From an uncultured Bacilli bacterium (GTDB lineage: Bacteria; Bacillota_I; Bacilli_A; RF39; UBA660), in assembly GCA_947623825.1 (NCBI GenBank), contig CANQHQ010000003.1, positions 4,220 through 68,219 of the forward strand: DNA of 64,000 bases. The letters run 5' to 3'. A program made the position numbers and the translations under genes. The notes beneath the pieces were generated by a model. The model did no database searches. It saw nothing but the letters and a program-made list of their open reading frames with translations, and had not been told where the DNA came from. Shown in pieces: positions 22,599 through 63,311 of this stretch (positions within the stretch are counted from its first letter, which is position 1; each line of letters begins with the position of its first letter).

Positions 22599-22668
22599 GT
22601 CGTTCTCCTTTCTCTTGATAAAGAAAGGCACCTTAGTTTTCTAAAGTGCCCCTTTTTCTTTTTTTGTT

Positions 22669-22914
22669 TTAAGATTTTAAGTTCTTTTCTATTAATAAGT
22701 TCAACGCATGATCGACTTCTCCCTCATCCTTTAAAGGAACGAGGTAGTTTTCATCATTTTCGGCATTCTGTTTGGTTACTTCTTTGCGAATGCAAATATC
22801 TTCGTTGTCCTTGATATTCGAAAGATATACGTAGAAGCCACCTTCGGTTTCAATTTTGTCAATTACCGCATAGTTTTCATTATCTTCTAAAGGAATAATC
22901 GTATTATTTACCAT
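22669..22914 (-). CDS. DUF1292 (YrzB-like) family protein
   Basis: MVNNTIIPLEDNENYAVIDKIETEGGFYVYL...EDENYLVPLKDEGE matches the pattern of the YrzB/DUF1292 family. I trimmed the start to the ATG that has a GGAGGAAAG Shine-Dalgarno; the listed 22986 start lacks one. Confidence 0.65.
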   Translation of the reverse strand: MVNNTIIPLEDNENYAVIDKIETEGGFYVYLSNIKDNEDICIRKEVTKQNAENDENYLVPLKDEGEVDHALNLLIEKNLKS

Positions 22915-22915
22915 T

Positions 22916-23464
22916 TTACTTTCCTCCTTTACTGTTGGCTTCATCCATATCGATATTTTGAGATACAACTTGACGTACCGCATCATCCGTTAAGCGACGA
23001 TAATTTCCATTTTCATCCGGTCCTGCCCCTACATTAATTCCTAAAAAGTAATCTTCTGGATTTTCTTGGACAAGGGTTTCTTTTGTCTCTTTGATTTGAC
23101 CTAATGTTTCGGCATCCTGTTTGACTTTTTCCATCCAACTCATTTCGTCGGAATGACTCGACTCTCCGGTTTCTTGGGCGTAAACTTGATGATACGTATC
23201 TAGGGCATTCATATCGGAAGCACCTTTGATTGTTACTGCACCCATGGCAATTAATAGAGCGACCGCAAGAGCATTCTTTCTAAATTCCGCCATTTTCGAA
23301 CTTTTCCCTACTCTCGTCTCTCCATGAACTCGGATTTCTTGCCCTTGAGTAGAACGATTCACGATACGGGCTTTTAATCCATCTAAATCTCTTCCATTCA
23401 AATAATCTTCTACGTGCTTTCTCGCAATTTCTTCTTTTGTCATGTTTACTAAAGATTCATCCAT
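22916..23464 (-). CDS. Hypothetical single-pass membrane protein
   Basis: 182 aa. One transmembrane segment (ALAVALLIAMGAVTI). Shine-Dalgarno GGTGAT. I recognised no domain. Confidence 0.45.
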   Translation of the reverse strand: MDESLVNMTKEEIARKHVEDYLNGRDLDGLKARIVNRSTQGQEIRVHGETRVGKSSKMAEFRKNALAVALLIAMGAVTIKGASDMNALDTYHQVYAQETGESSHSDEMSWMEKVKQDAETLGQIKETKETLVQENPEDYFLGINVGAGPDENGNYRRLTDDAVRQVVSQNIDMDEANSKGGK

Positions 23465-23521
23465 TGATTATCACCATTATCATTATAAGATATTTTTTTT
23501 GAGAAAACAAGACAGTTTTCA

Positions 23522-24790
23522 TCATTTTGCGATACAGTATGGATATTTTATGTCTTGAATTGTGACAGAAACCACTTCTTCTTGTTGATGTCGTTCTGGT
23601 ATTTTTACGAGAAGAAAATTACTCGTGTGACCGATGCTTTCTTTTTCTTCTCCTCGTTCTATCAATACTTCTACTTCTTTTCCTAACGATTGTCTCATAT
23701 AGGCTTCTTCCAATTCTTTTGACAATTCGACAAGGCGATTGACTCGTTCCTTTTTTGTTTTTCCATCTATTTGATTTGGCATTTTAGCAGCCGCCGTTCC
23801 CTTTCTCATCGAATAAGGAAACACGTGGATTTTAGAAAAAGCCATCTCTTTACAGAAATCGTAACTTTCCTGAAACCATTCTTCTGTTTCTCCTGGAAAT
23901 CCGACAATCACATCCGTCGAAATCGAAATTTGAGGGCGGATGGCACGAATTTCCGCGATTTTCTTTCGATAATCCTCTTTGTGATATTTTCGATTCATCC
24001 GTTTCATGATTTCTTCGCTTCCTGATTGAAGTGGAACGTGGAGATGATCCGCAATGATTTTGGAATTTTTTAAAATTGCCAACACCCGGTCATTTAGTTC
24101 TGTAATTTCAATCGAAGAAATTCGAACGCGATACAAATTTGGGATTTGAATGATACGTTCTAATAAGTCGGCAAAATCGGTATCTAAATCTCTCCCATAA
24201 TTTCCTGTATGAATTCCCGTCAAGACAATTTCTTTGTAGCCATTTTGAACCAAACTTGTAATCTCTTCGATGACACGATCCGGGTCCTTGCTTCGACACT
24301 TACCACGGACATACGGAATGATACAGTACGTACAGTAATTTTCACATCCGTCTTGAATTTTGACAAATGCTCTCGTCTTACTCGAAAAAGAATGAATCTC
24401 CATATTTTCAAATTTGGTACCTAAATCTTCGTACAAATCGCGAATCTCGTTTCGTTCGCGAAAGAAGGTTTCGACCAAATCTACGATTTTACTTTTATCC
24501 TTGTTTCCGACCAGAATATCTACTCCCTCGATGGAAAGGTCTTTATTGGCCTCGATAAAACATCCCATCGCCACGACACAAGCATCTTTTTTTCGACGAA
24601 TGGCTTGATGAATCATCTTTCGACTTTTGACATCGGCCATATTGGTGACACTACAGGTATTGATAATGTAGACATCACAAGAATCGGTAAAAGGAACGAT
24701 TTCATATCCTCGTTCTTGAAACAAGTTCATTACATATTCACTTTCATACGCGTTGACTTTACAACCTAAGGTCATCATTCCTACTTTCAT
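23522..24790 (-). CDS. mtaB: MiaB-family radical SAM tRNA methylthiotransferase (MtaB/YqeV-like)
   Basis: N-terminal MTTase domain TLGCKVNAYESE. Radical SAM segment CENYCTYCIIP, which matches the CxxxCxxC triad. C-terminal TRAM-like segment. 422 aa. Confidence 0.8.
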   Translation of the reverse strand: MKVGMMTLGCKVNAYESEYVMNLFQERGYEIVPFTDSCDVYIINTCSVTNMADVKSRKMIHQAIRRKKDACVVAMGCFIEANKDLSIEGVDILVGNKDKSKIVDLVETFFRERNEIRDLYEDLGTKFENMEIHSFSSKTRAFVKIQDGCENYCTYCIIPYVRGKCRSKDPDRVIEEITSLVQNGYKEIVLTGIHTGNYGRDLDTDFADLLERIIQIPNLYRVRISSIEITELNDRVLAILKNSKIIADHLHVPLQSGSEEIMKRMNRKYHKEDYRKKIAEIRAIRPQISISTDVIVGFPGETEEWFQESYDFCKEMAFSKIHVFPYSMRKGTAAAKMPNQIDGKTKKERVNRLVELSKELEEAYMRQSLGKEVEVLIERGEEKESIGHTSNFLLVKIPERHQQEEVVSVTIQDIKYPYCIAK

Positions 24791-24818
24791 GTTCTCACCT
24801 CAAAGCCCTCTTATTGTA

Positions 24819-27800
24819 TCATAACTTTTGAAATTTTTCATCTAAAACCGAGTATAAATAGATGTTTGTTTTCTTTCCTGTCTGGCTTTCTACATAGGTC
24901 CGATATCCTTCCAATTGTTTTTGATAAGCCATATCTGTCATCTGTTTTAATTTGTAATCGATGATATCCGCATGATTTTCATAGACGAGGAGTAAATCGA
25001 TAATCCCATGTTTGGTACTTTCTTTTTGATCGATAAATTCGTATTCTTTATAGATTTCTGCATCTTGGATTTGATCCAATAGTGGTTGTCCTAAGAAGGC
25101 TTGGATTTTCTTCGTAAGGAAAGGAGAAAGTCCTTCATAATTCGGATTTTTAAAGTCGATGGATTCCAAAACTTCGTGAACTTGCGTTCCAAATTTCATC
25201 TTGTTTTGGGTTTCTTTTGATAATAAGGTTGCAACTTCTTTCGAGAATTTTTCCTCTTTCTCTTCCTCTTCTTTGATTTCAATGTCTTCGAAGGAAACTT
25301 TTTCGTTCTTTTTTTCTATCCAATCCGCGAGATTTTTACTATTTCTTTTTTTGTAATCGAGGGACATAGGAATCGTAGAAAGATCGATAGGTACGCGATA
25401 GTCGGATATCTCTTCATAGATACTTTTCAAGAATTCTAGGAAAGAGTTATATTTTAATCTTCTCGTATCATCGACTTTGCCACTAGAAACATGAGAAGTT
25501 TCTTCCTTTAAATCGACCACAAAAATCATCTTTTCTTTGCTTCTCGTTAGGGCGACATAAAACAAACGAATCTTTTCACTAATTTCATCCGCATCATACT
25601 TTTCTTTATAAAGAGTCTTATAGATGGTTTCTCCATACCCCTCTTTAAAATAAGGGGTCATGATGCCATACGTTTCATCAAAAAGAATTTTTTCTTTAAG
25701 TTCTTTGACGTTAAACTTCTCATAAAGTCCGGTAAAATAACAAATCGGATACTCGAGTCCTTTCGATTTATGAATGGTCATAATTTTGACACTGTCGTTC
25801 GATTCTTTGTTGGCTGGTATCTTGATTGGTTCTTCACTGTCGATGGTTTCCACCAAATAATTTTGGAAGTCTTCGAGCGAATACCCTGCCTTCTTCAAAG
25901 TAGCGGCATTTTGAATGATATATTCTAGGTTATTCGTAGCGAGTTCTACATTCCCTGTTTTCATTCCTTTTTTATAAAATCCAAAGGCATCGATGATGTG
26001 CGATAAAAAGTTTTCAATATCCAAAGAATTGAGTAGAGGAAGAAGCGATACTACTTGTTGATACAATGCGGTTTCTTGATAGTTTTTTTCTTTCATTACT
26101 GAGAAAAGTTCTCGATCGGTCATTTCAAAAAGATAACTTCTTCCGATACTGAAAAAGGCATAACGAAATTCTTCGTCTAATTCTTTCTTTTCTATTTTTA
26201 AGAATAACGTAATTAAGTTTTTAATGAGATAGATTTCGATTTGATCTTTGATATTTTCATCTTTCCAAATCGTAAGAGGAATTTGTTCGTATTCAAAGAT
26301 CTTTTTATATAATTCAAATTTACTTCCTCGATCCATTAAAATTACAAAGTCTTCGTATTTCACATCTCTTAAAATTTTTTCTTCTTTGTCAAAGATTTGG
26401 TAGTGGCTTTCTACTTTTTTCTTAATATCGTTCGCTACGATAAACGCTTCGATTTCAGGCCTTGTAAATTCACTTTCTTTTTCGTAGGTATAGTCGTACA
26501 TTTCCATGTCGTATTTCTGGGTTGTCTTCCCTTCTTCGAGATAGGATTGATTTCCAAACACCATGCGATGACTAATCGAGTAGTCTGCTCCTCCAAACTG
26601 ATTATCCATAATGTAATCAAAGATATAATTGATATTTTCTAGGACTTCTTTTCGACTACGAAAGTTTTTGACTAAATCGATTTTGTAACCATCGGCTCCG
26701 TTCGCATAATGGTCGTATTTTTCTTTGAAGATATAAGGGTTGGCATTACGAAAGCGATAGATGGATTGTTTGATATCCCCCACCATATAGACATTTTGAT
26801 TTCCAATGAGGCGAATCAAATCTTCCTGTAAGTCACTGGTGTCCTGGTATTCATCAATCATAATTTCAGAGAAGGTATTTTTTAATTCTTCTCGAATTGA
26901 AGCATTTTCTTTCACGAGACGAATGGCCAATTTACTGATATCGACAAATTCGTAAACATCTCGTTCTTGTTTGTATGCCTGAATTTGAGTATCGAGTTGT
27001 TGAATGATTTGAATGATGACTTCGACGTCTTCTTTGGTCGAAAGAATCGTCTCTTTGATTTCTTGTCGATCTTGATAAATGGTTTTTTCATTGATTTCCT
27101 TTAGAATTTCTCCGATTCGTTCTTTGGCTTTTTTGGCAATCTCTCCACTTCCTCGTTCGATATTCGGCATAGAGACTTCACAACGATCATGAAATTCTTC
27201 ATACGTTTTCGCTTCGAGGATTCCTTGAAGAAGGTCTTCTAAATTTGCATAGTAGTCGCCACTTACCTCCGGCTTGATTTTCGCTAGTTCTTCCGGAATT
27301 TGATCTCGTAATCTTCCTAGATACTTTTCAAATTCCATAATGACTTTCTCTAGATTGTCTTCTTCAAAGCGGACGAAATAATGATTCAAGTAATCTTCTT
27401 TTTCATATTTCATATCTAACTTGTCGTTGATTTTTAAAATAGCCTTGCGGAGTTCTTTATCATCTTTGGTACAAAATTTACTGATGAAACGATCAAACTT
27501 GGCATCTTTTTTTTGATAAAACATTTCGAAAATGGCATCTAGTTTTTTCTTTTTGACAAGAGAAATGACATTTTCATCGATGATACTTACTTCTTTACGA
27601 ATATTTAAAACGGCATGGTATTTCCTTACAATCGCTAACGCAAAGGAATCAAAAGTAGTGATATAGGCTTTATCAATTTTCTCGACTTCTCGATCTAGAT
27701 GATGTTCCTTTATTTTTTTTCGAATTCGCATCATCATCTCATAAGCAGCGGCTTTGGTAAAAGTTAAAATGAGAAGAGAATCGACCGAAGTACCTCCTAA

Positions 27801-27923
27801 TACTTTGCGGAGGGCCCGTTCAGAAAGAACCGCCGTTTTTCCGCTTCCGGCTCCTGCGCTCACAATGATATTGGTTCCTTCTTTGTCAATGGCTTCTTGT
27901 TGTTCTTTGGTCCAATCAGGCAT
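24819..27923 (-). CDS. addA: ATP-dependent helicase/nuclease subunit A (AddA/RexA)
   Basis: UvrD-like N-terminus MPDWTKEQQEAI...SAGAGSGKTAVLSERA. 1034 aa with a C-terminal nuclease region. Adjacent to and overlapping addB. Confidence 0.9.
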   Translation of the reverse strand: MPDWTKEQQEAIDKEGTNIIVSAGAGSGKTAVLSERALRKVLGGTSVDSLLILTFTKAAAYEMMMRIRKKIKEHHLDREVEKIDKAYITTFDSFALAIVRKYHAVLNIRKEVSIIDENVISLVKKKKLDAIFEMFYQKKDAKFDRFISKFCTKDDKELRKAILKINDKLDMKYEKEDYLNHYFVRFEEDNLEKVIMEFEKYLGRLRDQIPEELAKIKPEVSGDYYANLEDLLQGILEAKTYEEFHDRCEVSMPNIERGSGEIAKKAKERIGEILKEINEKTIYQDRQEIKETILSTKEDVEVIIQIIQQLDTQIQAYKQERDVYEFVDISKLAIRLVKENASIREELKNTFSEIMIDEYQDTSDLQEDLIRLIGNQNVYMVGDIKQSIYRFRNANPYIFKEKYDHYANGADGYKIDLVKNFRSRKEVLENINYIFDYIMDNQFGGADYSISHRMVFGNQSYLEEGKTTQKYDMEMYDYTYEKESEFTRPEIEAFIVANDIKKKVESHYQIFDKEEKILRDVKYEDFVILMDRGSKFELYKKIFEYEQIPLTIWKDENIKDQIEIYLIKNLITLFLKIEKKELDEEFRYAFFSIGRSYLFEMTDRELFSVMKEKNYQETALYQQVVSLLPLLNSLDIENFLSHIIDAFGFYKKGMKTGNVELATNNLEYIIQNAATLKKAGYSLEDFQNYLVETIDSEEPIKIPANKESNDSVKIMTIHKSKGLEYPICYFTGLYEKFNVKELKEKILFDETYGIMTPYFKEGYGETIYKTLYKEKYDADEISEKIRLFYVALTRSKEKMIFVVDLKEETSHVSSGKVDDTRRLKYNSFLEFLKSIYEEISDYRVPIDLSTIPMSLDYKKRNSKNLADWIEKKNEKVSFEDIEIKEEEEKEEKFSKEVATLLSKETQNKMKFGTQVHEVLESIDFKNPNYEGLSPFLTKKIQAFLGQPLLDQIQDAEIYKEYEFIDQKESTKHGIIDLLLVYENHADIIDYKLKQMTDMAYQKQLEGYRTYVESQTGKKTNIYLYSVLDEKFQKL

Positions 27924-30318
27924 CTTCTTCCCCTCCTAAAAAACTAAGTTTCGTGTATTTTTTGTATGAAACGATATTTTCTTCTTTATGGAAACAAATA
28001 TCTTTGTATCGACAGAACTCACATCCCACCAAATCTTTGCCAATCCGTTTGGGATTAATTGAGAAATCTCCCTCTCGAATTTTTTCGTCGGCTTCTGCAA
28101 TTCGTTCTTTGACGATTTCTTCCATTTTTTTCATTTTCTCTTTCGAGAGAACTTTCGAATAAGCATAAAATCCATTCTTACCTTTTTTCAATCCTTGAAT
28201 GAGGTGACTATCTTGATACGTCTCATCCAATTTCTCTAATAGTTCTTCCTCTTCTCTCGCATAACCAACCAATCTCAAATTTTTCTCTTTTTCTGTTTTA
28301 TAATCCTTTCCTTTTTGACGAGGAATTTCTTTATTGATAATTTTTTGGAGAAAAATTCCGATAACGATCGGATCTTCAAAATGGTGACTTTCTTCAATTA
28401 AATAAAGATAAACAGGTAACTGCATTCCAATTCCGTAAGGGATATGATTCAAATTATCTGGTAAGGTTCCTGTCTTATAATCGATGACCGAGAGATACGT
28501 TTTTCCCTCTTGTTGGGTATATAAAATCTTATCGACGATTCCCATAAAGGTAGTTTCTACATTTTCTTTCTTTGAGACAGGTAAATAAAATTTCTTTTCA
28601 TGCAGTTCTTCGGTAAGATCTGTCAGTTTCTTTTGCTTTTTCAATACAGCAATATCAAACAACAATTCCTCTCGTAACTTGTTTAATAGAACGATTTCAC
28701 TCGGTTCTAGGGAGTATTTTTCCTTTTCTTCCTGATAAACTCGGTCAAAATCAAAATCTTCTTTGAGGCACTGTTCTAAGACGGCATGAAAAATGGTTCC
28801 TACTCGAGTCGCAAAAGTTTCTTCAAACGAATCCAATTTTAAAATATTGGATAGATAATAACGGAATTGACAACGGAAGAAATGATCAATCGATGAATAT
28901 GATAATAGTAGTTTATGATTTAAGAATGTTTGAAACTCTTCTTTATCGATTCCTTTGAATTGATTATCAAAAGTCATATAAGGAATGGAATAAGATTGAT
29001 ATAAAGTAGGAAGTTCTGCTTCCACGACTCCATATTTATTTAATTTGTCTAGGTATCGCGAAAGAAGCACTTCATTGAAATCATTCGATGGTGCGATGCC
29101 ACTTTCTTTTTTAACGATTTGAAATCCCAGTTCTTCGATTAAAAGAGAAGGATTCCATTCATCAAAAGCACTCTTTTTCTTATATGTAATGGTTAGTTGT
29201 GGTATCCGAAAGAGAGAATTTTGGAGTGTTTCTTTTTCAATTTTATTTTTTTCATCACTGGTCCATAGACCTAATTCTTGCTTTTCTTTATCGGTTAGAA
29301 AGTCTTCATCTTTGTGAACTACTGGGAAATTTTCTTTATTGAATCCCAAAAGAAAACAGATATCCTCGTCTTGGACTTCCTCTAGACGAATGAGAGAAAC
29401 TTTGTTTTTGCGATGCGGAAGAGCTACTTTTTTCTTTTCGAACGAACGAGCGAGCAGTTCCGATATTTCGCTGATTTTTCCTTCGTACCAAGCATATTCG
29501 TTGAACACTTGGATCACGGATTCCATTTGTTGTTCCGAGGTCATTTCTTCCGTTAACTCATCGATGACTTCTTGAAACGTCTCTTTTTCTTTGATAAGTT
29601 CTAAGGCGCGTCTTCCGACACGAAGTTCTCCAAGAGATGGTTCTTCCTCTGTTTCGACAGGGATATGAAGAAGAGAAAAAAGACGATGAAGCGGATATTT
29701 GTATTCTTTACTTAAATTCACAATTTTAATGTTTTGAATAGGAACTCCCGAACGAAGCGTCTCGATGATTTTCCCACCTACGGCACCAATTTCCTGTTCT
29801 ATATCAGGAAACTCATACACTTCGCGTTGTCTTGGTGAAACTGGTTCTTCTTCGATTACTTCTACTTCCCAATTTTGAAACAATTTTTGATAAAACGGAT
29901 CGAGAACGTATCCATAAACCAAGATTTTCCGATTTTTCAAGAGAAAAGGAAAGAAAGCATCTTTTTCAATCCATCCTCGTTCTTCTAGTTCCTCTTTTAA
30001 ATGAACTAGATGCATGAGTTTTTCACTTTCATACGTCTTTTTTTCTAAGTACGGCAATATAGAAAGTTCTTCTTCGATAATGGAAACTTTTTTCTGTTCT
30101 CGTTTTAATAAATAAGGCATTGCTTCTCTCGAAACCACACCAAAATAACGAGAAAGAAATTCTTCTAAACTCATGATTTTGACTGGATAGAGTCTTTGTG
30201 ATTCGGCCATTTCTAGAAGAATTTTCTTTTTTCTTTCTCGCGATGTGATCAGTAAGGTTGGTTCTTTGATTTTTTCTAATATGTTCATAGTTCCATAAGG
30301 TATGTCCTTATGATTCAC
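27916..30318 (-). CDS. addB: ATP-dependent helicase/nuclease subunit B (AddB/RexB)
   Basis: 800 aa. C-terminal Fe-S/nuclease cysteines CEFCRYKDICFHK. Gene order is addB-addA. The exact start is ambiguous: the listed start is a GTG and an ATG lies 10 codons in. Confidence 0.8.
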   Translation of the reverse strand: MNHKDIPYGTMNILEKIKEPTLLITSRERKKKILLEMAESQRLYPVKIMSLEEFLSRYFGVVSREAMPYLLKREQKKVSIIEEELSILPYLEKKTYESEKLMHLVHLKEELEERGWIEKDAFFPFLLKNRKILVYGYVLDPFYQKLFQNWEVEVIEEEPVSPRQREVYEFPDIEQEIGAVGGKIIETLRSGVPIQNIKIVNLSKEYKYPLHRLFSLLHIPVETEEEPSLGELRVGRRALELIKEKETFQEVIDELTEEMTSEQQMESVIQVFNEYAWYEGKISEISELLARSFEKKKVALPHRKNKVSLIRLEEVQDEDICFLLGFNKENFPVVHKDEDFLTDKEKQELGLWTSDEKNKIEKETLQNSLFRIPQLTITYKKKSAFDEWNPSLLIEELGFQIVKKESGIAPSNDFNEVLLSRYLDKLNKYGVVEAELPTLYQSYSIPYMTFDNQFKGIDKEEFQTFLNHKLLLSYSSIDHFFRCQFRYYLSNILKLDSFEETFATRVGTIFHAVLEQCLKEDFDFDRVYQEEKEKYSLEPSEIVLLNKLREELLFDIAVLKKQKKLTDLTEELHEKKFYLPVSKKENVETTFMGIVDKILYTQQEGKTYLSVIDYKTGTLPDNLNHIPYGIGMQLPVYLYLIEESHHFEDPIVIGIFLQKIINKEIPRQKGKDYKTEKEKNLRLVGYAREEEELLEKLDETYQDSHLIQGLKKGKNGFYAYSKVLSKEKMKKMEEIVKERIAEADEKIREGDFSINPKRIGKDLVGCEFCRYKDICFHKEENIVSYKKYTKLSFLGGEEDA

Positions 30319-31922: not shown

Positions 31923-32744
31923 TTACTTTTGACACTTTGGACAATAATAGGTTCCCCTTCCCCCTACTTCGATTTTGCGAATGCTCTCTCCACAAAGAGG
32001 ACATGGTTCTTTCTGTTTTCCATGAACTTTCAAATGTTGTTGAAACAGACCATGTACACCTTCTTCTGAAGTGTAACTTCGAATGGTGGTTCCTCCCTCT
32101 TGAATGGCTTCCATTAGAATTTCACGCGTATGCGTAAGGATGTCTTCCCGATTTTTCTTTGTCAATCGAGAAGCCTTTTTTAATGGTGAAATCCCCGACG
32201 CAAAAAGAATTTCATCCGCATAAATATTTCCGATTCCGGCGATAATTCTTTGATCTAACAACACGGTTTTAATCGGTAAATTGCTTTTTCGTATCTTTTC
32301 TTTTAGGTAGGCTTCGGTTAATTTTTTATCATTGAATTCTAACCCCAGTTCACTGAGTGGCTTTTGCGTCTCCATTTCCTTTTTCGGAAGCAAAACCATT
32401 TTTCCAAATTTACGGACATCATGAAAACGTAATTCTTCGTCATGATCTAGTGTAAAAATAACATGTTCATGTTTTCCTCTTGGCTCGTTTTTGTCACGAT
32501 AGAAGAATTTTCCTTCCATCCGAAGATGAACGAGAAGACACTTTTCTCCTAGATCAAAGACAATCCATTTTCCTCTTGTCATAATATCGTAAATCTTCTG
32601 ATTTTGAATTTGTTCTTTCCATTCGGAAACACTGGGAGAAAGAATGATATTTTCATGAAACACTTCTGCACTTTCAATCGTTCTTTGTAATAAATGTTTT
32701 TTTAATTTTTTCGCCGTGGTGACTACTTCTGGTTTTTCTGGCAT
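31923..32744 (-). CDS. mutM: Formamidopyrimidine-DNA glycosylase
   Basis: The N-terminus MPEKPEV carries the catalytic Pro2 and Glu3. The C-terminal zinc finger is CPLCGESIRKIEVGGRGTYYCPKCQ. Confidence 0.9.
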   Translation of the reverse strand: MPEKPEVVTTAKKLKKHLLQRTIESAEVFHENIILSPSVSEWKEQIQNQKIYDIMTRGKWIVFDLGEKCLLVHLRMEGKFFYRDKNEPRGKHEHVIFTLDHDEELRFHDVRKFGKMVLLPKKEMETQKPLSELGLEFNDKKLTEAYLKEKIRKSNLPIKTVLLDQRIIAGIGNIYADEILFASGISPLKKASRLTKKNREDILTHTREILMEAIQEGGTTIRSYTSEEGVHGLFQQHLKVHGKQKEPCPLCGESIRKIEVGGRGTYYCPKCQK

Positions 32745-33613: not shown

Positions 33614-36226
33614 CTACTTTGCTTCATACCAGTCATTTCCCATTTCAATATCTACTAATAATGGAACATTTAATCGATACGTATTTTCCATGATTCTCTT
33701 GACAATTTCTTTTACTGTATCTAGTTCCTCTAATACGACATTGAAGACTAATTCATCGTGTACCTGAATTAACATTTTACTTTTGAGATTCTTTTCCTTA
33801 AATTCTTGATAAATCTCAATCATGGCTTTTTTTAATATATCGGCACTACTTCCTTGAATCGGTGTATTGAGAGCGATTCTTTCTCCTTGGCTACGAATCA
33901 AATAATTCTTATTTTGCAATTCTTCGATTTTTCTTTTTCGGTTCATAACAGTTTTTACATACCCTGTTTCATAGGCCTTTTGAATCGATTCATCCATATA
34001 TTTTTTTATTTCGGGATAACTTTCTAGATATCCATCAATAAAATCTTTCGCACTAGCAATATCAATTCCTAAATCTTCCGATAGGCCAAAACTACTGATT
34101 CCATACAAAATACCAAAATTGACTGCTTTGGCCGTTCTTCTCATGTCCTTTGTCACATTTTCTAGAGGTACATGGAAAATATCAGAAGCGGTTTTCGCGT
34201 GGATGTCTTTTTCTTCATGAAAGGCTTTAATGAGATTATCTACGCCTGCCAAAGAAGCAAAAATACGTAATTCAATTTGCGAGTAATCGCTCGATAAAAT
34301 GAGACTGTTTGGTTCTGGAACAAAGGCTTTCCGAATCAATCTTCCCTCTTCTGTGCGAATTGGAATGTTTTGAAGATTCGGAGAAATACTAGAAAGTCTT
34401 CCTGTTCTCGTCAACGTCTGATTAAAAATCGTATGAATTTTTCCATCTTCGGCTACTTCTGCGAGTAATCCAATAATATAAGTGGCTTTTAGTTTGGTTA
34501 ACATTCGGTATTCTAAAATATCTTCGATAATCGGATAGTGAGGGGCTAATTTATCCAAAATATCTTTGCTTGTGGAATAGTTTCCGTCTTTGACCTTTTT
34601 TGGATAAGGAATGTTTAATTTTTCAAAAAGAATCGTACCCAATTGTTTTGGAGAGGAAATATTAAAACTTTCCCCCGCAATGGTTTCAATTTCTTTTTCT
34701 AGTTTCTCAATTCGGGCATCCAAATCTTTTCCCATCTGAATTAGATAATCACAATTGACTGAGATTCCGGTTTGTTCCATATCTCGTAAAACATCTACTA
34801 GAGGCATTTCAATATCATTAAATAAAGTAAGGTCTCCTTCTTCTTCTAACTCTTTTAAGAAGCGTTCTTTGGTTTCATAAATAAATTTTGCTTTAGAGAC
34901 AATCACTTTTGCGTAATCTTCTTTTTCCGGTAATTTCTCTTTTCCTGGTTTTCCAAAGAATTCTTCGTAGAAAGGAATCGATTCTTTTTGTGTGTTTGCC
35001 AAATAAGCGATATCATCTTTGATATTGTAATTTAAAAGATAAGTCGCTATCATCGTATCGAAATGACAATTCTTGATATTGCACCCTTCTCGGATGAGAA
35101 CATACCATAATTTCTTTAAATCATATGTGTATTTTTCTTCTTTTCCCATTAAAAATTCTGGATTTTTCTTCAATACTTCCATCGGAATAAAGGCACTGAG
35201 ATTTTCCCCATAGAGTCCTACTCCAATTGCTTCAGCCTTATGATAATTTTCTCCTAATACTTCTAGATAAATGGCAAACTTTTCGGGAAGAGAGACTTGA
35301 TTTACGTCATCTATTTTTTCGTACGTCCATTCTTTCTTCTCTTCTTGGCGAATGTCTTCTTGCGGAATATCTAGTTTTTTTATTAAGGAGAAAAACTCTA
35401 ATTCTTCTAACAATTTGACATATTGTAAGGCATCGATTCCATGATATTGAATATGATTTAAATCGGTATCGATTGGAACTTCTCGATAGATGGTGGCAAT
35501 TTCTTTACTCATGTAGGCATTTTCTTTATCCATCAATAATTTTTCTTTGGTTTTACCCTTAATATCCTCAATATGGGCATACAAATTATCTAAGGTTTGA
35601 TATTCCGAAAGTAAAGAGATGGCTGTTTTTTCTCCGATTCCTTTGACTCCAGGAATATTATCACTCGCGTCACCCATTAAGGCTTTTAAATCAATCATAC
35701 CGATGGGTTCTACTCCATACGTTTCTTTGAACGTTTCTCGGTTCATACGCACAAAACCAGTCTGCTTTAATAGTTTCACATCGACTTCGTCACTGATTAA
35801 TTGTAATAAATCTTTGTCACTACTGATAATCGTCGCATTGAAAGTTGGATCTTCCTCTACCTTTTTGGCAAACGTTCCGATAATATCATCGGCTTCGTAA
35901 TTGTCGATTTCAAAATAATGAATTCCCATCGCCTCACATAGTTCTTTGGCGACAGGAAATTGTAATTTTAAATCATCCGGAGTCTCATTTCTTCCGCCTT
36001 TGTAGTCTTTATATTTTTCGTGACGAAAGGTTTTTCCTTTATCGAACGCAATCATGATATATTCTGGCTTCTCTTCGTGAATGATTTTATTTATCATATT
36101 GATAAAGCCATAGATGGCATTGGTCGGGAACCCTTTTGAGTTTCTCATGATATTCCCTGTGTAACTCGTCGCAAAATAACTTCGAAACAATAAATTATTT
36201 CCATCTACTAAAATGACTTTTTTCAT
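33614..36226 (-). CDS. polA: DNA polymerase I
   Basis: 5'-3' exonuclease N-terminus MKKVILVDGNNLLFRSYFA. Polymerase motifs RRTAKAVNFGILYG and QVHDELVF at the C-terminus. I moved the start to the ATG at 36226 (GGAGG Shine-Dalgarno); the listed start is over-extended. Confidence 0.9.
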   Translation of the reverse strand: MKKVILVDGNNLLFRSYFATSYTGNIMRNSKGFPTNAIYGFINMINKIIHEEKPEYIMIAFDKGKTFRHEKYKDYKGGRNETPDDLKLQFPVAKELCEAMGIHYFEIDNYEADDIIGTFAKKVEEDPTFNATIISSDKDLLQLISDEVDVKLLKQTGFVRMNRETFKETYGVEPIGMIDLKALMGDASDNIPGVKGIGEKTAISLLSEYQTLDNLYAHIEDIKGKTKEKLLMDKENAYMSKEIATIYREVPIDTDLNHIQYHGIDALQYVKLLEELEFFSLIKKLDIPQEDIRQEEKKEWTYEKIDDVNQVSLPEKFAIYLEVLGENYHKAEAIGVGLYGENLSAFIPMEVLKKNPEFLMGKEEKYTYDLKKLWYVLIREGCNIKNCHFDTMIATYLLNYNIKDDIAYLANTQKESIPFYEEFFGKPGKEKLPEKEDYAKVIVSKAKFIYETKERFLKELEEEGDLTLFNDIEMPLVDVLRDMEQTGISVNCDYLIQMGKDLDARIEKLEKEIETIAGESFNISSPKQLGTILFEKLNIPYPKKVKDGNYSTSKDILDKLAPHYPIIEDILEYRMLTKLKATYIIGLLAEVAEDGKIHTIFNQTLTRTGRLSSISPNLQNIPIRTEEGRLIRKAFVPEPNSLILSSDYSQIELRIFASLAGVDNLIKAFHEEKDIHAKTASDIFHVPLENVTKDMRRTAKAVNFGILYGISSFGLSEDLGIDIASAKDFIDGYLESYPEIKKYMDESIQKAYETGYVKTVMNRKRKIEELQNKNYLIRSQGERIALNTPIQGSSADILKKAMIEIYQEFKEKNLKSKMLIQVHDELVFNVVLEELDTVKEIVKRIMENTYRLNVPLLVDIEMGNDWYEAK

Positions 36227-36303
36227 CTGTTCTTCCTCCTCTGTTATTTTTCTTCTCCTTTTTATTATATCATGACCCAATGAAGATACCAAGAAATTCA
36301 GGC

Positions 36304-36459
36304 TTAGATTTTTTGAAATGCTACTACTTGATTCGGATACACATTTCTTTCTTTACTTTCTAAAAAATTCAATCGTTTCATCACAAATACACTGAAAAGG
36401 ATGACAATAATATACATTGCGATTAAATATTTCCCTTCGTTTTTTTCTAATTGATCCAT
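36304..36459 (-). CDS. Small single-transmembrane protein (51 aa), divergent from lexA. Candidate SOS-induced cell-division inhibitor (YneA/SosA-like by position).
   Basis: MDQLEKNEGKYLIAMYIIVILFSVFVMKRLNFLESKERNVYPNQVVAFQKI. GAGGAGG Shine-Dalgarno 7 nt upstream. Its promoter is TTGACA, 17 nt, then TACAAT, and the spacer is itself a Cheo box (see next feature). Confidence 0.5.
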   Translation of the reverse strand: MDQLEKNEGKYLIAMYIIVILFSVFVMKRLNFLESKERNVYPNQVVAFQKI

Positions 36460-36489
36460 ATTATCCCTCCTCATGATTCCATTGTATTT

Positions 36490-36503
36490 CAAACAATTGT
36501 TCG
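36490..36503. promoter_or_regulatory. LexA (Cheo) box 1, lying inside the spacer of the minus-strand promoter of the 51-aa gene
   Basis: The minus strand reads CGAACAATTGTTTG. The Bacillus SOS-box consensus is CGAACRNRYGTTCG; there is one mismatch. It sits between TTGACA (plus 36509..36504) and TACAAT (plus 36486..36481). Confidence 0.55.
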
Positions 36504-36517
36504 TGTCAATTATTTTT

Positions 36518-36531
36518 TGAACATTTGTTTG
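36518..36531. promoter_or_regulatory. LexA (Cheo) box 2, overlapping the -35 of the lexA promoter
   Basis: TGAACATTTGTTTG has a good GAAC half-site and a GTTT half-site. The lexA promoter is TTGACA (36529..36534), 17 nt, then TAAGAT (36552..36557). Shine-Dalgarno AAAGGAGG. Confidence 0.45.
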
Positions 36532-36579
36532 ACATTTGACGTCATATGTGTTAAGATGACATTAAAGGAGGCATAGGAT

Positions 36580-37197
36580 ATGGGAGATTTAACCAATCGA
36601 CAAGCAGAAATTTTAAAAGCATTGAAAATTTTTTTAGCCAAGAAAGGGTTCCCACCTACAGTACGGGAACTTGGACAAGCAGTCGGGCTTTCTTCCCCTG
36701 CAACCATTCAATTTCATTTAAATAAACTGGAAGAAAAAGGATATATTCGAAAAGATCCATCCAAAAATAGAACCATCGAATTATTAGTAGAGAATGAATA
36801 TTTAGAAAAGGATGAAAAAGCCGTAGATATTCCTCTTCTCGGAAAGGTAACTGCTGGAAATCCCATCGAGGCCATCGAGATGCCAGATGAATTTTTCTGT
36901 CTACCTGTCAATTTACTTCCTAATAAAAAAGAAGTTTTTGCGCTTCGTGTCAGTGGAGAATCCATGATTAATGTCGGAATTTATGACGGGGATATCATTA
37001 TTGTCGAAAGAAAAGCAACGGCTAATAATGGAGAAACAGTTGTGGCGATGACAGAAGATAATAAAGTAACTGTAAAGACTTTCTATAAAGAGAAAGATCA
37101 TATTCGCCTACAACCAGAAAATGATTTCATGGAGCCGATTCTTTTACCGAATGTCACTATTTTGGGAAAAGTGGTTGGTCTCTATCGTCAATTATAA
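36580..37197 (+). CDS. lexA: LexA repressor
   Basis: N-terminal winged helix-turn-helix. Cleavage-site region VTAGNPIEAI. S24 peptidase segment GESMINVGIYDGDIIIVE. 205 aa. Confidence 0.9.
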   Translation: MGDLTNRQAEILKALKIFLAKKGFPPTVRELGQAVGLSSPATIQFHLNKLEEKGYIRKDPSKNRTIELLVENEYLEKDEKAVDIPLLGKVTAGNPIEAIEMPDEFFCLPVNLLPNKKEVFALRVSGESMINVGIYDGDIIIVERKATANNGETVVAMTEDNKVTVKTFYKEKDHIRLQPENDFMEPILLPNVTILGKVVGLYRQL

Positions 37198-37220: not shown

Positions 37221-37252
37221 AAAAGACCAGTTCTACTCTGAACTGGTCTTTT
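37221..37252. terminator. Bidirectional rho-independent terminator between the convergent lexA and tcdA genes
   Basis: Perfect 13-bp inverted repeat AAAAGACCAGTTC tactct GAACTGGTCTTTT. It has A-runs and T-runs on both sides. Confidence 0.7.
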
Positions 37253-43544: not shown

Positions 43545-44282
43545 CTACCCTACTTTACTAATACTTTGAAGGAAACTTTTACTTTTTAAATATAATCCGG
43601 CATATCGATCGTAGTAATCATCAATAAATTCGTTGAGTTCTTTTTGTACTTCTTCTTTGACATCTAATTTTGTTATTTTAGCAATGTCTACATAGTAGAA
43701 CATCCTTACCAATTTTACCATTTTGTCGCTAAAAATTCGCTCATTTTGATAACAGTCTTTACAGAGGTACCCCCCTGCCCTGGCGTCGATAGTAACGATT
43801 GCTTTTTGACTTCCACAGACACTACATCCGTCTAGGACTGGGCGAATTCCTAAAAAATCTAAATATTTGAGTTCAATAATATTCGTTAAGACTTTGCAGT
43901 CGTACGAGTCATTGATTTTTTCTAAGGCTGCTATCAAAAGAGGGTATACTTCCTTGGCTTCGGTGTGTTTGTATACCTGTTCGGTCAAATCCAACAAGTA
44001 ATCGGCATAACTGATTTTTTCTATATCCTTTTGTAATGGTAAAAAACTGTTTTTGATGTCCACCGCGCACAAAGTAGAAATTCCGTTTTCTTTGTAGTAG
44101 ATATGAAAAATTCCATAACTCATCGGCATACTGACTCCCCGCAGTTTGCTTTTTAAGGACCGACATCCCTTAGACATTATGCTAATCATTCCGTATTCCT
44201 TTGTCAAGACTTTTAAAATCTTACTTGATTCGCTATAATTGGTCGCTCGAAGGACGATGCCTTCCGTTTTGGTCAGATTCAT
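43545..44282 (-). CDS. recO: DNA repair protein RecO
   Basis: 245 aa. C-terminal zinc motif CSVCGSQ...CKDC. Follows era and yqzL as in Bacillus. Confidence 0.85.
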   Translation of the reverse strand: MNLTKTEGIVLRATNYSESSKILKVLTKEYGMISIMSKGCRSLKSKLRGVSMPMSYGIFHIYYKENGISTLCAVDIKNSFLPLQKDIEKISYADYLLDLTEQVYKHTEAKEVYPLLIAALEKINDSYDCKVLTNIIELKYLDFLGIRPVLDGCSVCGSQKAIVTIDARAGGYLCKDCYQNERIFSDKMVKLVRMFYYVDIAKITKLDVKEEVQKELNEFIDDYYDRYAGLYLKSKSFLQSISKVG

Positions 44283-47228: not shown

Positions 47229-48389
47229 CTAATTTCCTTCTTTTTGTGGTTCTTCTTTGATTTCTTGATAAGCTGTAATGTTTTCCTTGACGGTAAAGAA
47301 GATTTCTATCTCTATTTTACTATCTTCTTCGGTAATTTTCAAACTTTTTTCATACAATATTGAGGCATCTTCTCCTAGACTAGATAAAAGTTTTTCTCTC
47401 GCAATCATAGAGGCTTCGACTAAAGCCAAGTCTTTGGTATAGATTTTTTCAATTTGCTCGACTTCTTCTTCCTCTTCCCAGGCGATTCGGATTGGTAGGA
47501 AAGAGTTTTTGATTTCAAATAGTGGATGACTTTCTTTTTTCTCATACGGATGACGGTCGAACCAATGCCAACTTTTTCCGAAGAAATCGATAACGAGTGT
47601 TTTCTTTTTTCTTCCTGTCTTCGTTTTTTCTTCGTAATGATACGGAAGAGACACATCGATGGTGTACCAGGTTGTGGCATACACTTTTCCTTGGGCTTCG
47701 ACTAGGGCCATTACGGTATCTTTATTTTTAATTTGTCCCGAGATTAAAATATCTCCTTTTTTGACATATTGATCTTTGGCAGCCACAATGGTTCCCTGGG
47801 CTGCTTCTATTTCGAGGATACGTCCCTCTTTTCTCGCAACAATATCACGAGGTGTTTCACTCTTTTCTTCTGAATTTCTTTTTCTTTCTTCTACTTTGGC
47901 GATGTATTTCGTTCCGATTCTTTCAATTTCTAACCACTCAATTTGATCCCGATTTCGTTCAATAATCGTTTTTACAATCCGTTCTTGGTCATCAAAAGAA
48001 CGAATCCAATGATATCGATCAATTCCCTCTTTTTTTAGTTCTTCGCGAACGAGAGAACGAATCGATTCTTTGGTATGAACCACTTCGACCGAAAAAATGA
48101 GATGAGAAAGGAAGAAAATCAAGAGAAGACTAAGGGAAAAGGCACATAAAAAAAGACGATACATGCGAATCCAGTAAAGGAATTTCCAAGGTCCTCGATA
48201 CCCAATCACACGTATGGTATCTATCGTCTTAATTTCCAGCAATTTTTGATATCCTTGAGGAGAAAGACAAAGAATGACTTTTTTCGGTTCTTCTATAATC
48301 GATTCCATCTCTATCTTATGAAGAGATAACGTTCGAAGTAAACGTTTACTGTCTTTTCCGGTGATTTCGACAACGTAGAAATTACGCAT
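47229..48389 (-). CDS. yqfD: Sporulation protein YqfD (stage IV)
   Basis: About 386 aa. An N-terminal cytoplasmic region, a single transmembrane segment (LFLCAFSLSLLLIFFLSHLIF) and a C-terminal domain. It follows yqfC as in Bacilli and Clostridia. I moved the start to the internal ATG (MRNFYVV) to avoid a 44-nt overlap with yqfC. Confidence 0.65.
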   Translation of the reverse strand: MRNFYVVEITGKDSKRLLRTLSLHKIEMESIIEEPKKVILCLSPQGYQKLLEIKTIDTIRVIGYRGPWKFLYWIRMYRLFLCAFSLSLLLIFFLSHLIFSVEVVHTKESIRSLVREELKKEGIDRYHWIRSFDDQERIVKTIIERNRDQIEWLEIERIGTKYIAKVEERKRNSEEKSETPRDIVARKEGRILEIEAAQGTIVAAKDQYVKKGDILISGQIKNKDTVMALVEAQGKVYATTWYTIDVSLPYHYEEKTKTGRKKKTLVIDFFGKSWHWFDRHPYEKKESHPLFEIKNSFLPIRIAWEEEEEVEQIEKIYTKDLALVEASMIAREKLLSSLGEDASILYEKSLKITEEDSKIEIEIFFTVKENITAYQEIKEEPQKEGN

Positions 48390-48624
48390 CGGGACTCTTC
48401 CATTCGATGGCTTGAATGGTGCCATCTAATAAAATTTCATGATCTAACAGTTTTTGAACGCGTAGATTTTGTCCCGTGATTAGAATGGTACCATCCACTT
48501 TTTCTAACGATATTTTTTCTTTTTCCATCCACTCAATTTTTGTATAGTTGATGATATTTAATTTTCCCTTTACGTAGTGCATCTCAAAGTTTTGATTGAA
48601 AATAGAATCCCTAAGAAAAGACAT
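48382..48624 (-). CDS. yqfC: Sporulation protein YqfC
   Basis: 80 aa. Its size and its YqfC-like sequence (IEWMEKEKISLEKVDGTILITGQNLRVQKL), directly upstream of yqfD, support the call. Confidence 0.65.
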   Translation of the reverse strand: MSFLRDSIFNQNFEMHYVKGKLNIINYTKIEWMEKEKISLEKVDGTILITGQNLRVQKLLDHEILLDGTIQAIEWKSPDA

Positions 48625-54284: not shown

Positions 54285-54344
54285 CACTTCCTACTTACAT
54301 TATTTACAAAAGTCCCCATTGAGGTAAAAAAAAGAAGATTTTTT

Positions 54345-58650: not shown

Positions 58651-58813
58651 GTTACTCACCTCGTATTCTCTTTCATTATAACAAGTTCCCGTTGGGTTTT
58701 CAATTTTTTTGGGAAATTCCAAAGGGATTTGACAGGAGTACAATGAAAAGAACCAACTTTGTCTTTAGAAAACAAAACTGGTTCTTTTCTGTATTTTATG
58801 GAGGTCGTAGTCC

Positions 58814-59110: not shown

Positions 59111-59126
59111 TTTCGCATCTTCCTTT

Positions 59127-60050: not shown

Positions 60051-60058
60051 ATTTCCAC

Positions 60059-60499: not shown

Positions 60500-60504
60500 A
60501 GGCA

Positions 60505-60545
60505 TCCCCCACTTTTCACCATTATCAACCACTACTTACCATAAT
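60505..60545 (-). promoter_or_regulatory. MraZ operator: four direct TGGK repeats at 10-bp spacing in the mraZ 5' region
   Basis: Minus strand: TGGTAAGTAG TGGTTGATAA TGGTGAAAAG TGGGGGATGC. It lies downstream of the promoter TTTACA, 18 nt, then TATGAT. Confidence 0.5.
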
Positions 60546-63301: not shown

Positions 63302-63311
63302 CTTCAACCTC

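What the first reader, a model, noticed from the sequence alone, without database searches (positions are those of the whole stretch)
36304..36534. lexA is divergent from an SOS-box-controlled 51-aa transmembrane gene that leads into polA
The minus-strand promoter TTGACA-17-TACAAT has the sequence CGAACAATTGTTTG as its entire spacer. That is one mismatch from the Bacillus Cheo box, so LexA binding would occlude RNA polymerase. The gene it drives encodes a 51-aa single-pass membrane protein. It has the size and the divergent-from-lexA position of the SOS cell-division inhibitors YneA (Bacillus, Listeria), SosA (Staphylococcus), DivS and ChiZ, although there is no sequence similarity. It lies only 77 bp upstream of polA in the same orientation with no intervening terminator, so polA may be partly SOS-inducible here. 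A second, weaker box overlaps the lexA -35.
Basis: partly seen in the sequence, partly recalled or inferred. Interest (0 to 1): 0.65.

Follow-up and report, generated by a model that had tools for sequence, protein, structure and literature searches.

The report
SOS-controlled small membrane gene beside lexA
A 51-residue membrane-protein gene sits back-to-back with the DNA-damage repressor gene lexA and carries a LexA binding site inside its promoter; it belongs to an unnamed family found in about three quarters of related uncultured gut Bacilli and is most likely their damage-induced brake on cell division, an expected kind of gene in a form not described before.

Summary
On the minus strand, TTGACA-17-TACAAT drives a 51-aa single-helix membrane ORF (36459-36304). 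The box CGAACAATTGTTTG fills 14 of the 17 spacer bases. A weaker box overlaps the lexA -35.

The ORF is a real gene. About 64 of 81 related genomes and 51 of 72 metagenome contigs carry a 38-64 aa homologue at the same place, divergent from lexA. A canonical box accompanies the gene (odds ratios 35 and 24). It is missing from most loci without the gene, including all six where polA directly abuts lexA.

The family has 156 clusters among 1.84 billion representatives. It matches no Pfam, NCBIfam or PHROG model, has no LysM domain and shows no detectable similarity to other proteins. Shared features are a basic N-terminus, a helix with a conserved Tyr, a juxtamembrane R-[IV]-E-x-L motif and a short tail.

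Best reading: a LexA-repressed checkpoint protein analogous to YneA and SosA. The regulation is strongly supported by sequence evidence. The division-inhibiting function is inferred.

polA has its own conserved extended -10 promoter in the 77-nt gap. No terminator precedes it, so any SOS effect on polA would come from read-through added to a constitutive promoter.

Verdict: a new member of a known kind, of moderate interest.

The parts
36304..36459 (-). Small gene: 51-aa single-pass membrane protein (MDQLEKNEGKYLIAMYIIVILFSVFVMKRLNFLESKERNVYPNQVVAFQKI). It is a divergent member of an unnamed family.
   Evidence: ORF and translation. A profile built without this protein picks it as the only significant hit among 1365 six-frame ORFs of the window (E = 6.9e-6). 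It keeps the three near-invariant family residues Y16, R29 and L33. AlphaFold2 models a helix over residues 6-40.
36465..36472 (-). Shine-Dalgarno sequence GAGGAGGG, 5 nt before the ATG.
   Evidence: Read directly from the sequence. A strong SD is present at the homologous position in the relatives.
36481..36509 (-). Sigma-A-type promoter of the small gene: TTGACA, 17-nt spacer, TACAAT.
   Evidence: Matches 11 of 12 consensus positions and is the best site in the region. The -35 and -10 are conserved in 60 of 63 loci.
36490..36503 (.). LexA operator (Cheo-type box 1), CGAACAATTGTTTG. It occupies spacer positions 1-14 and abuts the -35.
   Evidence: One mismatch to CGAACN4GTTCG. Top PWM score in the window, 20.5 bits. 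The same placement is seen in relatives. Such boxes are more than 1000-fold enriched upstream of lexA. A canonical box co-occurs with the small gene.
36518..36531 (.). Second, weaker box TGAACATTTGTTTG, overlapping the lexA -35. It is the presumed autoregulatory operator.
   Evidence: Read directly from the sequence. PWM score 14.3 bits. The core GTCAAACAAATGTTT is invariant or nearly so in 63 of 63 relatives.
36529..36557 (+). lexA promoter: TTGACA, 17-nt spacer, TGtTAAGAT (extended -10).
   Evidence: Promoter scan.
36580..37197 (+). lexA, 205 aa. Cleavage site Ala92-Gly93, Ser128 in GESM, Lys166.
   Evidence: Pfam LexA_DNA_bind 2e-23 and Peptidase_S24 6e-32. Best solved relative is PDB chain 3k2z_A, named 'LexA repressor' by its depositors, at 1e-33. 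Motif positions were located; their catalytic roles are assigned from general knowledge of LexA.
37221..37252 (+). Intrinsic terminator of lexA.
   Evidence: 13-bp stem followed by a T-run.
36264..36292 (-). polA's own promoter in the 77-nt gap: TTGGTA, 17-nt spacer, TGaTATAAT (extended -10).
   Evidence: Promoter scan. TGnTATA[AC]T is present in 53 of 57 homologous gaps against 1.3% of random 75-nt windows. It is kept in the six relatives where polA directly abuts lexA.
33614..36226 (-). polA (DNA polymerase I, 870 aa), downstream of the small gene with no terminator between them.
   Evidence: Pfam domains 5_3_exonuc_N, 5_3_exonuc, DNA_polI_exo1 and DNA_pol_A. No terminator.

Best explanation
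The 120-bp lexA/small-gene spacer is a back-to-back SOS control region.

In undamaged cells LexA would bind box 1, which lies between the -35 and -10 of the small gene. That would shut the promoter by excluding RNA polymerase. LexA would bind the weaker box 2 over its own -35 for autoregulation.

After DNA damage, RecA-stimulated LexA self-cleavage would release both promoters. The cell would then make a roughly 50-aa bitopic membrane protein with its N-terminus inside, one helix, and a short outside tail. I propose that this protein is the lineage's SOS checkpoint effector. Through its helix and the conserved juxtamembrane R-[IV]-E-x-L segment it would bind a late divisome component and delay septation until repair is done. 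FtsW or the class B PBP is the likeliest target, by analogy with YneA and SosA.

Transcripts from the SOS promoter probably also run into polA, because no terminator intervenes. That would add to polA's own constitutive promoter.

Shown by sequence evidence: the gene is real and conserved, its linkage to lexA, the operator-in-promoter architecture, and the absence of a terminator. Inferred: LexA binding, damage induction, topology, the divisome target and the division block.
For: **A real, selected gene.**
- A 38-64 aa homologue with a strong SD starts about 111-140 nt upstream of lexA, divergently, in about 64 of 81 genomes. The same holds in 51 of 72 independent metagenome loci.
- Searching the other way, 4 of 4 family members sit in the order lexA (divergent), small gene, polA, fpg.
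- Close pairs show pN/pS of 0.2-0.45.
- The family has 192 hits among 5.8 billion proteins and 156 clusters among 1.84 billion representatives, essentially all short proteins.

**Linkage is to lexA, not to polA.** L009 and L016 keep the gene and its box although a different gene follows.

**The operator.**
- TTGACA followed directly by CGAACAnnTGT[TA][TC]G and then TATAAT occurs in 60 of 63 loci.
- Sites with at most 1 mismatch to the literature consensus number 32 in 16 kb upstream of lexA, against 1 in 830 kb elsewhere.
- A box with at most 2 mismatches co-occurs with the small gene, with odds ratios of 35 and 24 (p about 1e-7).
- LexA itself is canonical.

**Protein features match the known class.**
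- Flank charges fit N-in, C-out topology in 61 of 64 members.
- Conserved G9, Y16, R29, E31 and L33 argue for a specific partner.
- The model shows one continuous helix running past the membrane.
- SosA likewise has a helix at residues 10-30, an outside C-terminus and its strongest conservation just after the helix. Synteny with lexA was the clue used to find SosA (PMC6851548).
- YneA's helix binds TM7 of FtsW. SosA and ChiZ are predicted to do the same (PMC13396833).

**The target machinery exists.** The window encodes mraZ, rsmH and a PASTA-bearing class B PBP.
Against: - There are no expression, binding or phenotype data.
- No sequence similarity to any proven inhibitor was found.
- The protein has no LysM domain, which YneA needs for activity (PMC13396833).
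- At 51 aa, with a tail of about 21 residues, it is smaller than any proven Gram-positive inhibitor.
- The window's copy is a divergent member. It scores 21.9 bits against the family profile. Its N-terminus is acidic, so charge-based topology is ambiguous.
- About 20-30% of related genomes lack the gene, so it is dispensable.
- The motif could not be checked upstream of recA or uvrAB in this lineage, because none of those genes lies in the DNA held.
Confidence: 0.55

Rival explanations
1. An SOS-induced membrane-perturbing peptide of the TisB or DinQ type. Once LexA is cleaved, the small hydrophobic peptide would depolarise the membrane and promote dormancy or persistence, rather than target the divisome.
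For: It shares the size class, a single helix and a LexA box. E. coli DinQ is an SOS-regulated toxic single-transmembrane peptide (PMC3567139, listed).
Against: No antisense promoter or RNA signal lies over the ORF, and there is no Rfam match. The fixed position next to lexA is not typical of type I toxins (my own knowledge). The conserved Tyr in the helix and the conserved juxtamembrane R-x-E-x-L motif suggest a specific partner rather than bulk membrane damage. Strong tight repression would fit both readings.
Confidence: 0.12
2. An SOS-regulated membrane protein with some other role, for example modulating a membrane protease, cell-wall remodelling, sporulation entry or DNA uptake, with no direct effect on division.
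For: The regulation is well supported but the function is not tested. The family is new. The window encodes the sporulation protein YqfD.
Against: In every Gram-positive case studied, the small single-pass membrane gene divergent from lexA proved to be the division inhibitor (PMC6851548).
Confidence: 0.17
3. A precursor of a secreted peptide. The basic N-terminus and hydrophobic stretch would act as a cleavable signal peptide, releasing an acidic peptide of about 22-25 aa as a damage signal.
For: The layout of basic residues, about 20 hydrophobic residues and then small residues (A-S, A-T or V-S) before D/N-R resembles a Gram-positive signal peptide. One family member weakly matches Phr_nterm at E = 0.18.
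Against: Position -3 is usually L, F or M, which makes a poor signal-peptidase I site. There is no helix breaker, and the model is one continuous helix through the putative cleavage site. The best-conserved residues straddle the membrane boundary.
Confidence: 0.08
4. A leader or regulatory ORF for polA. The small ORF would exist to control polA expression and the peptide itself would have no function.
For: The ORF lies 77 nt upstream of polA on the same strand with no terminator. This order is kept in most relatives.
Against: The peptide sequence is conserved under purifying selection. The gene stays with lexA when polA is elsewhere, as in L009 and L016. polA keeps its own extended -10 promoter whether or not the small gene is present.
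Confidence: 0.03
5. The box is a chance or relic match and the small gene is not under LexA control.
For: Within this single window the number of boxes is not above chance. LexA binding was not measured.
Against: Placement in the spacer is conserved in 60 of 63 loci. Enrichment upstream of lexA is more than 1000-fold. A canonical box co-occurs with the gene.
Confidence: 0.03

Closest known systems
SosA (Staphylococcus aureus SOS-induced division inhibitor, 77 aa)
   Same: It is divergent from lexA, LexA-controlled and has a single N-terminal helix with a short outside C-terminal part. It has no LysM domain. Its strongest conservation lies just after the helix. [quoted passage not shown] This is the closest analogue in architecture.
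   Different: No sequence similarity to it was detected: the exhaustive profile search returned only this family. Our protein is a third shorter, at 51 aa with a tail of about 21-24 aa. The function of SosA is proven, whereas ours is inferred.
YneA (Bacillus subtilis, Listeria)
   Same: It is divergent from lexA, carries LexA boxes and is a bitopic N-in, C-out membrane protein. Its helix alone targets FtsW TM7 and the division site (PMC13396833).
   Different: YneA needs a C-terminal LysM peptidoglycan-binding domain for activity. This family has none and is about half the size. There is no sequence similarity.
ChiZ (Rv2719c, Mycobacterium) and DivS (Corynebacterium)
   Same: They show the same synteny with lexA and have a single helix (PMC6851548).
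   Different: They are actinobacterial and much larger (my own knowledge). ChiZ has a LysM domain. Their LexA box type differs (my own knowledge).
SidA and DidA (Caulobacter crescentus)
   Same: They are very small, damage-induced membrane peptides that act on FtsW or FtsN late in division (PMC13396833).
   Different: They are not adjacent to lexA. DidA is SOS-independent. They are proteobacterial and unrelated in sequence.
TisB and DinQ (E. coli SOS-regulated type I toxins)
   Same: They are LexA-regulated, tiny, single-helix membrane peptides (PMC3567139).
   Different: They come with antisense RNA antitoxins and long processed leaders, and they are not linked to lexA. No antisense signal is seen here.

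Membership tests
Functional class: Gram-positive SOS-induced membrane division inhibitors (YneA, SosA, ChiZ, DivS) | The gene lies adjacent to lexA and is divergently transcribed from it. | tested here: met
   The two start codons are 120 nt apart on opposite strands. The arrangement is conserved in about 64 of 81 genome loci and 51 of 72 metagenome loci. Reverse synteny holds in 4 of 4 cases.
Functional class: Gram-positive SOS-induced membrane division inhibitors (YneA, SosA, ChiZ, DivS) | A LexA operator sits in the promoter (sequence level). | tested here: met
   Box 1 lies in the -35/-10 spacer. It is conserved, enriched upstream of lexA, and co-occurs with the small gene.
Functional class: Gram-positive SOS-induced membrane division inhibitors (YneA, SosA, ChiZ, DivS) | LexA binds the site and the gene is induced by DNA damage. 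| not testable with these tools
   This needs EMSA or ChIP and RT-qPCR or RNA-seq after mitomycin C.
Functional class: Gram-positive SOS-induced membrane division inhibitors (YneA, SosA, ChiZ, DivS) | A single N-terminal transmembrane helix with the C-terminus outside. | tested here: inconclusive
   One helix is clear. Flank charges fit N-in, C-out topology in 61 of 64 family members. The window's copy is one of three ambiguous ones, with net flank charges of -1 against 0.
Functional class: Gram-positive SOS-induced membrane division inhibitors (YneA, SosA, ChiZ, DivS) | Over-production blocks septation. | not testable with these tools
   The organism is uncultured, so a heterologous expression test would be needed.
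YneA / ChiZ families (homology) | A C-terminal LysM domain and sequence similarity. | tested here: not met
   None of 59 family members matches LysM or any other Pfam model at significance. There is no NCBIfam match. The exhaustive profile search returned proteins of 38-84 aa plus one weak 603-aa match, and every sequence I read belongs to this family.
SosA family (homology) | Detectable sequence similarity to staphylococcal SosA. | tested here: not met
   The profile search of 1.84 billion representatives gave 156 hits. Every one I read shares this family's own motif. A direct pairwise comparison with a SosA sequence was not run, because no SosA sequence was available to me.
LexA repressor | An N-terminal LexA winged-helix DNA-binding domain, an S24 peptidase domain, the Ala-Gly cleavage site and the Ser/Lys dyad. 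| tested here: met
   Pfam E-values of 2e-23 and 6e-32. A92-G93, S128 and K166 are present. The best solved-structure match is chain 3k2z_A, 'LexA repressor', at 1e-33.
Type I toxin-antitoxin (TisB/DinQ-like) | A cis- or trans-encoded antisense RNA antitoxin overlapping or adjacent to the toxin mRNA. | tested here: inconclusive
   No promoter-like site lies antisense to 36304-36459 and there is no Rfam match. An undescribed RNA cannot be excluded.

The most novel reading that the evidence does not exclude
This would be a previously unrecognised, minimal SOS checkpoint effector family of about 50 aa without a LysM domain, specific to uncultured gut Bacilli (NCBI 'Bacilli incertae sedis', formerly labelled Tenericutes or Mollicutes). 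It would block septal synthesis using only a transmembrane helix plus a conserved juxtamembrane R-[IV]-E-x-L helix extension acting on FtsW or the class B PBP. Its terminator-less SOS promoter would also bring polA (and fpg in relatives) into the damage response by read-through. That would differ from B. subtilis, where polA is constitutive (PMC13335488).
Probability: 0.3. Interest if true: 0.55.

Novelty: new member of a known kind. Interest (0 to 1): 0.4.

Why it matters
If correct, this identifies the DNA-damage checkpoint gene of a large, uncultured and poorly annotated group of gut Bacilli found in humans, rabbits, poultry and ruminants. In these genomes the gene is annotated only as 'hypothetical' or not called at all.

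It would add the smallest Gram-positive member to the set of non-homologous SOS membrane inhibitors. With only a helix and about 10 conserved juxtamembrane residues, it would be a compact natural probe of how FtsW and its PBP partner are inhibited. That question is under active study (PMC13396833).

It also gives a clean example of operator strength being split within one intergenic region. A strong box lies inside the promoter of the presumed toxic effector, and a weak, invariant box lies on lexA.

The practical value is mainly better annotation and a testable candidate. The finding does not overturn any concept.

Tried and rejected
- **Single-sequence search.** Searching with the 51-aa protein found only identical copies. 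The family emerged only from synteny-guided ORF extraction and a profile search.
- **Other SOS boxes in the window.** The next-best PWM hits, at 1822, 63852 and 38999, lie inside coding regions and within the range of shuffled controls. I rejected them.
- **Checking the motif at other SOS genes.** I tried tblastn with RecA, UvrA, UvrB, DinB and RuvB sequences written from memory against all DNA held. Only one ruvB turned up, in L068, with no box nearby. The regulon check could not be done.
- **dN/dS over all pairs.** This is saturated and uninformative (median 0.81). Only close pairs are usable.
- **Viral contigs.** The alignment was too variable for the scan. A single representative found nothing. 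There is no sign of phage origin.
- **Closer relatives of the window's divergent copy.** The metagenome scan found none above 78% LexA identity. I used that set as an independent replication instead.
- **Library searches.** Pfam, NCBIfam and PHROGs gave only sub-threshold noise. Rfam gave nothing.
- **Upstream start codons.** The TTG start (62 aa) lies upstream of the -10 hexamer. The in-frame ATG five codons upstream (56 aa) lacks an SD, because the SD lies within those codons. The family alignment supports ATG 36459.
- **polA directly under LexA.** Rejected. Relatives in which polA abuts lexA lack box 1.

Full report
**1. What is in the sequence**

Between 36226 and 36580 the window has two divergent genes.

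On the plus strand is lexA (36580-37197, 205 aa). It matches Pfam LexA_DNA_bind at 2e-23 and Peptidase_S24 at 6e-32. The Ala92-Gly93 site, Ser128 and Lys166 are present. Its best solved relative is PDB chain 3k2z_A, named 'LexA repressor', at 1e-33.

On the minus strand the elements run as follows:
- -35 TTGACA at 36509-36504;
- a 17-nt spacer, CGAACAATTGTTTGAAA;
- -10 TACAAT at 36486-36481;
- SD GAGGAGGG at 36472-36465;
- ATG at 36459;
- a 51-codon ORF ending at 36304.

The Cheo-type box CGAACAATTGTTTG (36490-36503) has one mismatch to CGAACN4GTTCG. It matches exactly the GAACN4GTTT form used for clostridia (PMC4234289). It fills 14 of the 17 spacer bases and abuts the -35.

A second box, TGAACATTTGTTTG (36518-36531), overlaps the lexA -35 at 36529-36534.

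polA starts at 36226, 77 nt after the small ORF. No terminator is predicted there. The gap RNA folds worse than shuffled versions (z = +2.2).

**2. The small ORF is a conserved gene tied to lexA**

The 51-aa protein alone finds only identical copies among 5.8 billion proteins and matches no Pfam family.

I fetched 80 loci around LexA relatives of 66-80% identity. All come from uncultured gut Bacilli variously labelled Bacilli, Tenericutes or Mollicutes. NCBI places named members in 'Bacilli incertae sedis'.

In 63 of the 81 genomes (window included), a 38-64 aa ORF with a strong SD and one hydrophobic helix starts about 111-140 nt upstream of lexA on the other strand (about 190 nt in two loci). 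One more case, L041, was missed by my filter.

The family pattern is M-K-K-x-h-K-(K)-G, then a helix with a near-invariant Tyr, then S/T-[DN]-R-[IV]-E-[RK]-L-[ED], then a short polar tail that often ends in an alternating, strand-like pattern.

Further support:
- A profile built without the window's protein picks the window ORF as the only significant hit among 1365 six-frame ORFs (E = 6.9e-6; the next best is 0.09).
- Close pairs show pN/pS of 0.2-0.45.
- A profile search finds 192 members among 5.8 billion proteins. All listed hits are 45-69 aa, and the only names any source gives them are 'hypothetical protein'.
- An exhaustive HMMER scan of 1.84 billion cluster representatives finds 156 clusters. 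The listed hits are 38-84 aa, apart from one weak 603-aa match (E = 5e-4), and every sequence I read carries the family motif.
- Starting from four family members not in the first set, each lies in the order lexA (divergent), small gene, polA, fpg.
- In an independent set of 72 metagenome loci, 51 carry the gene at the same place.
- The gene stays with lexA when polA is elsewhere, as in L009 and L016.

**3. The operator**

In 60 of 63 loci the small gene's -35 is followed directly by CGAACAnnTGT[TA][TC]G and then a TATAAT-like -10.

I tested the literature consensus rather than a self-trained matrix. Sites with at most 1 mismatch number 32 in the 16 kb lying 200 nt upstream of lexA, against 1 in the other 830 kb.

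A box with at most 2 mismatches tracks the small gene. In the genome set the counts are 59 of 63 loci with the gene against 5 of 17 without it (odds ratio 35, p = 1.4e-7). In the metagenome set they are 45 of 51 against 5 of 21 (odds ratio 24, p = 2e-7). Two of the exceptions, L011 and L075, keep the promoter and box but have a broken small ORF.

The lexA-side element GTCAAACAAATGTTT is invariant or nearly so in 63 of 63 loci, although it is a poorer consensus match.

The inference is that a strong operator inside the effector's core promoter gives tight repression. A weaker one over the lexA -35 gives autoregulation. LexA binding itself was not tested. I also could not check recA or uvr promoters of this lineage, because none lies in the DNA held.

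**4. polA**

The gap between the small gene and polA is short in relatives (median 50 nt). Only 3 of 57 gaps have a terminator-like hairpin.

53 of 57 gaps contain an extended -10, TGnTATA[AC]T. That compares with 1.3% of random 75-nt windows.

In the six relatives where the small gene is absent and polA abuts lexA, polA keeps this promoter. Box 1 is gone and only the lexA box remains.

So polA is not a direct LexA target. SOS-driven read-through on top of a constitutive promoter is plausible but unproven. In B. subtilis polA is reported as constitutive (PMC13335488).

**5. Likely mechanism**

In every studied Gram-positive, the small single-pass membrane gene divergent from lexA is the SOS division inhibitor. 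This synteny is how SosA was found (PMC6851548).

SosA has a helix at residues 10-30, an outside C-terminus, no LysM domain, and its strongest conservation just after the helix. The present family has the same layout.

YneA's helix binds TM7 of FtsW. SosA and ChiZ are modelled to do the same, and SosA's 'extended helix' is implicated in its activity (PMC13396833).

For the protein here:
- AlphaFold2 gives one helix over residues 6-40. It runs through the membrane span into the conserved motif (pLDDT above 90 for residues 11-30).
- Flank charges fit N-in, C-out topology in 61 of 64 members. The window's copy is ambiguous.
- The window encodes mraZ, rsmH and a PASTA-bearing class B PBP, so a wall-building divisome exists.

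I therefore read the gene as a LexA-repressed checkpoint effector acting on the late divisome. My rough confidence is about 0.9 for LexA control, about 0.95 for a real membrane protein, and about 0.55 for division inhibition.

**6. Rivals**

- A TisB- or DinQ-like membrane toxin (0.12). No antisense signal is seen, and the conserved specific residues argue against it.
- Another SOS-linked membrane role (0.17).
- A secreted-peptide precursor (0.08). The cleavage site is poor and the helix is continuous.
- A polA leader ORF (0.03). It is refuted in practice by the gene's independence from polA.
- A chance box (0.03).

**7. Membership and novelty**

The gene works like YneA and SosA but is not a member of either family. 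It has no LysM domain, matches no Pfam, NCBIfam or PHROG model, and has no detectable homologue outside its own family. No phage copies were found.

It is a new, unnamed family within a known functional kind. A specialist would find the result expected in outline. The useful points are the unusually small size, the clean operator architecture and the clade it annotates.

Interest score: 0.4.

Noticed in passing
L017, L023 (5021-5851, minus strand), L030, L054 (5042-5854, minus strand), L061, L066, L081: In a sister subclade the slot divergent from lexA holds a 266-285 aa ORF (MSMATLVYT... or MSIAILG...) instead of the small membrane gene. It has no significant Pfam match. Two tandem boxes (ACAAACGTTTGTTT and GTCAAACAACTGTTC) lie next to lexA. 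It may be a different SOS-linked gene.
   Followed up: partly
L011 and L075, about 100-300 nt upstream of lexA: The promoter and canonical box are intact but the small ORF is broken. L011 has a frameshift and L075 has an in-frame TAA after codon 4. These are either pseudogenes or assembly errors.
   Followed up: partly
window 36518-36534, and the same element in 63 loci: The lexA-side element AAACATTTGTTTGACA is invariant or nearly so across relatives, although it has 2-3 mismatches to CGAACN4GTTCG. The conservation extends about 10 nt upstream of the -35, which is more than a promoter alone would explain.
   Followed up: partly
window 36264-36272 and homologous gaps: polA has a strongly conserved extended -10, TGnTATA[AC]T. 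In most relatives it ends only about 18 nt before the ATG, which implies a very short leader.
   Followed up: yes
window 56473-60532: Start of a division and cell-wall cluster: mraZ, rsmH (MraW), an unannotated gap at 58743-59127 that could hold ftsL, and a class B PBP with PASTA domains. YqfD, a sporulation protein, lies at 47229-48425. The organism is therefore walled and possibly forms spores, despite the 'Tenericutes' labels on some relatives.
   Followed up: partly
window 20406-30318, 31923-32744 and 43545-44282: The window is dense in DNA-repair genes: recD2, addA-like and addB-like nucleases or helicases, fpg and recO. No SOS box precedes any of them.
   Followed up: partly
window 2608-10332 and 14887-18714: Two giant ORFs are present. 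One is 2574 aa and was not searched against any library. The other is a 1275-aa protein with VWA domains and six DUF285 ('Mycoplasma') repeats.
   Followed up: no
window 52197-54287 and 62855-64000: A C39-peptidase ABC exporter of the bacteriocin-export type. Near the window end there are two ORFs without Pfam matches, one of them Cys-rich (63312-63887).
   Followed up: no
window lexA 36580-37197: No LexA more than 80% identical was found among representatives of 185,579 species, and none above 78% in the metagenome collection. Only three short ENA contigs carry the identical small protein. The lineage is poorly sampled.
   Followed up: yes
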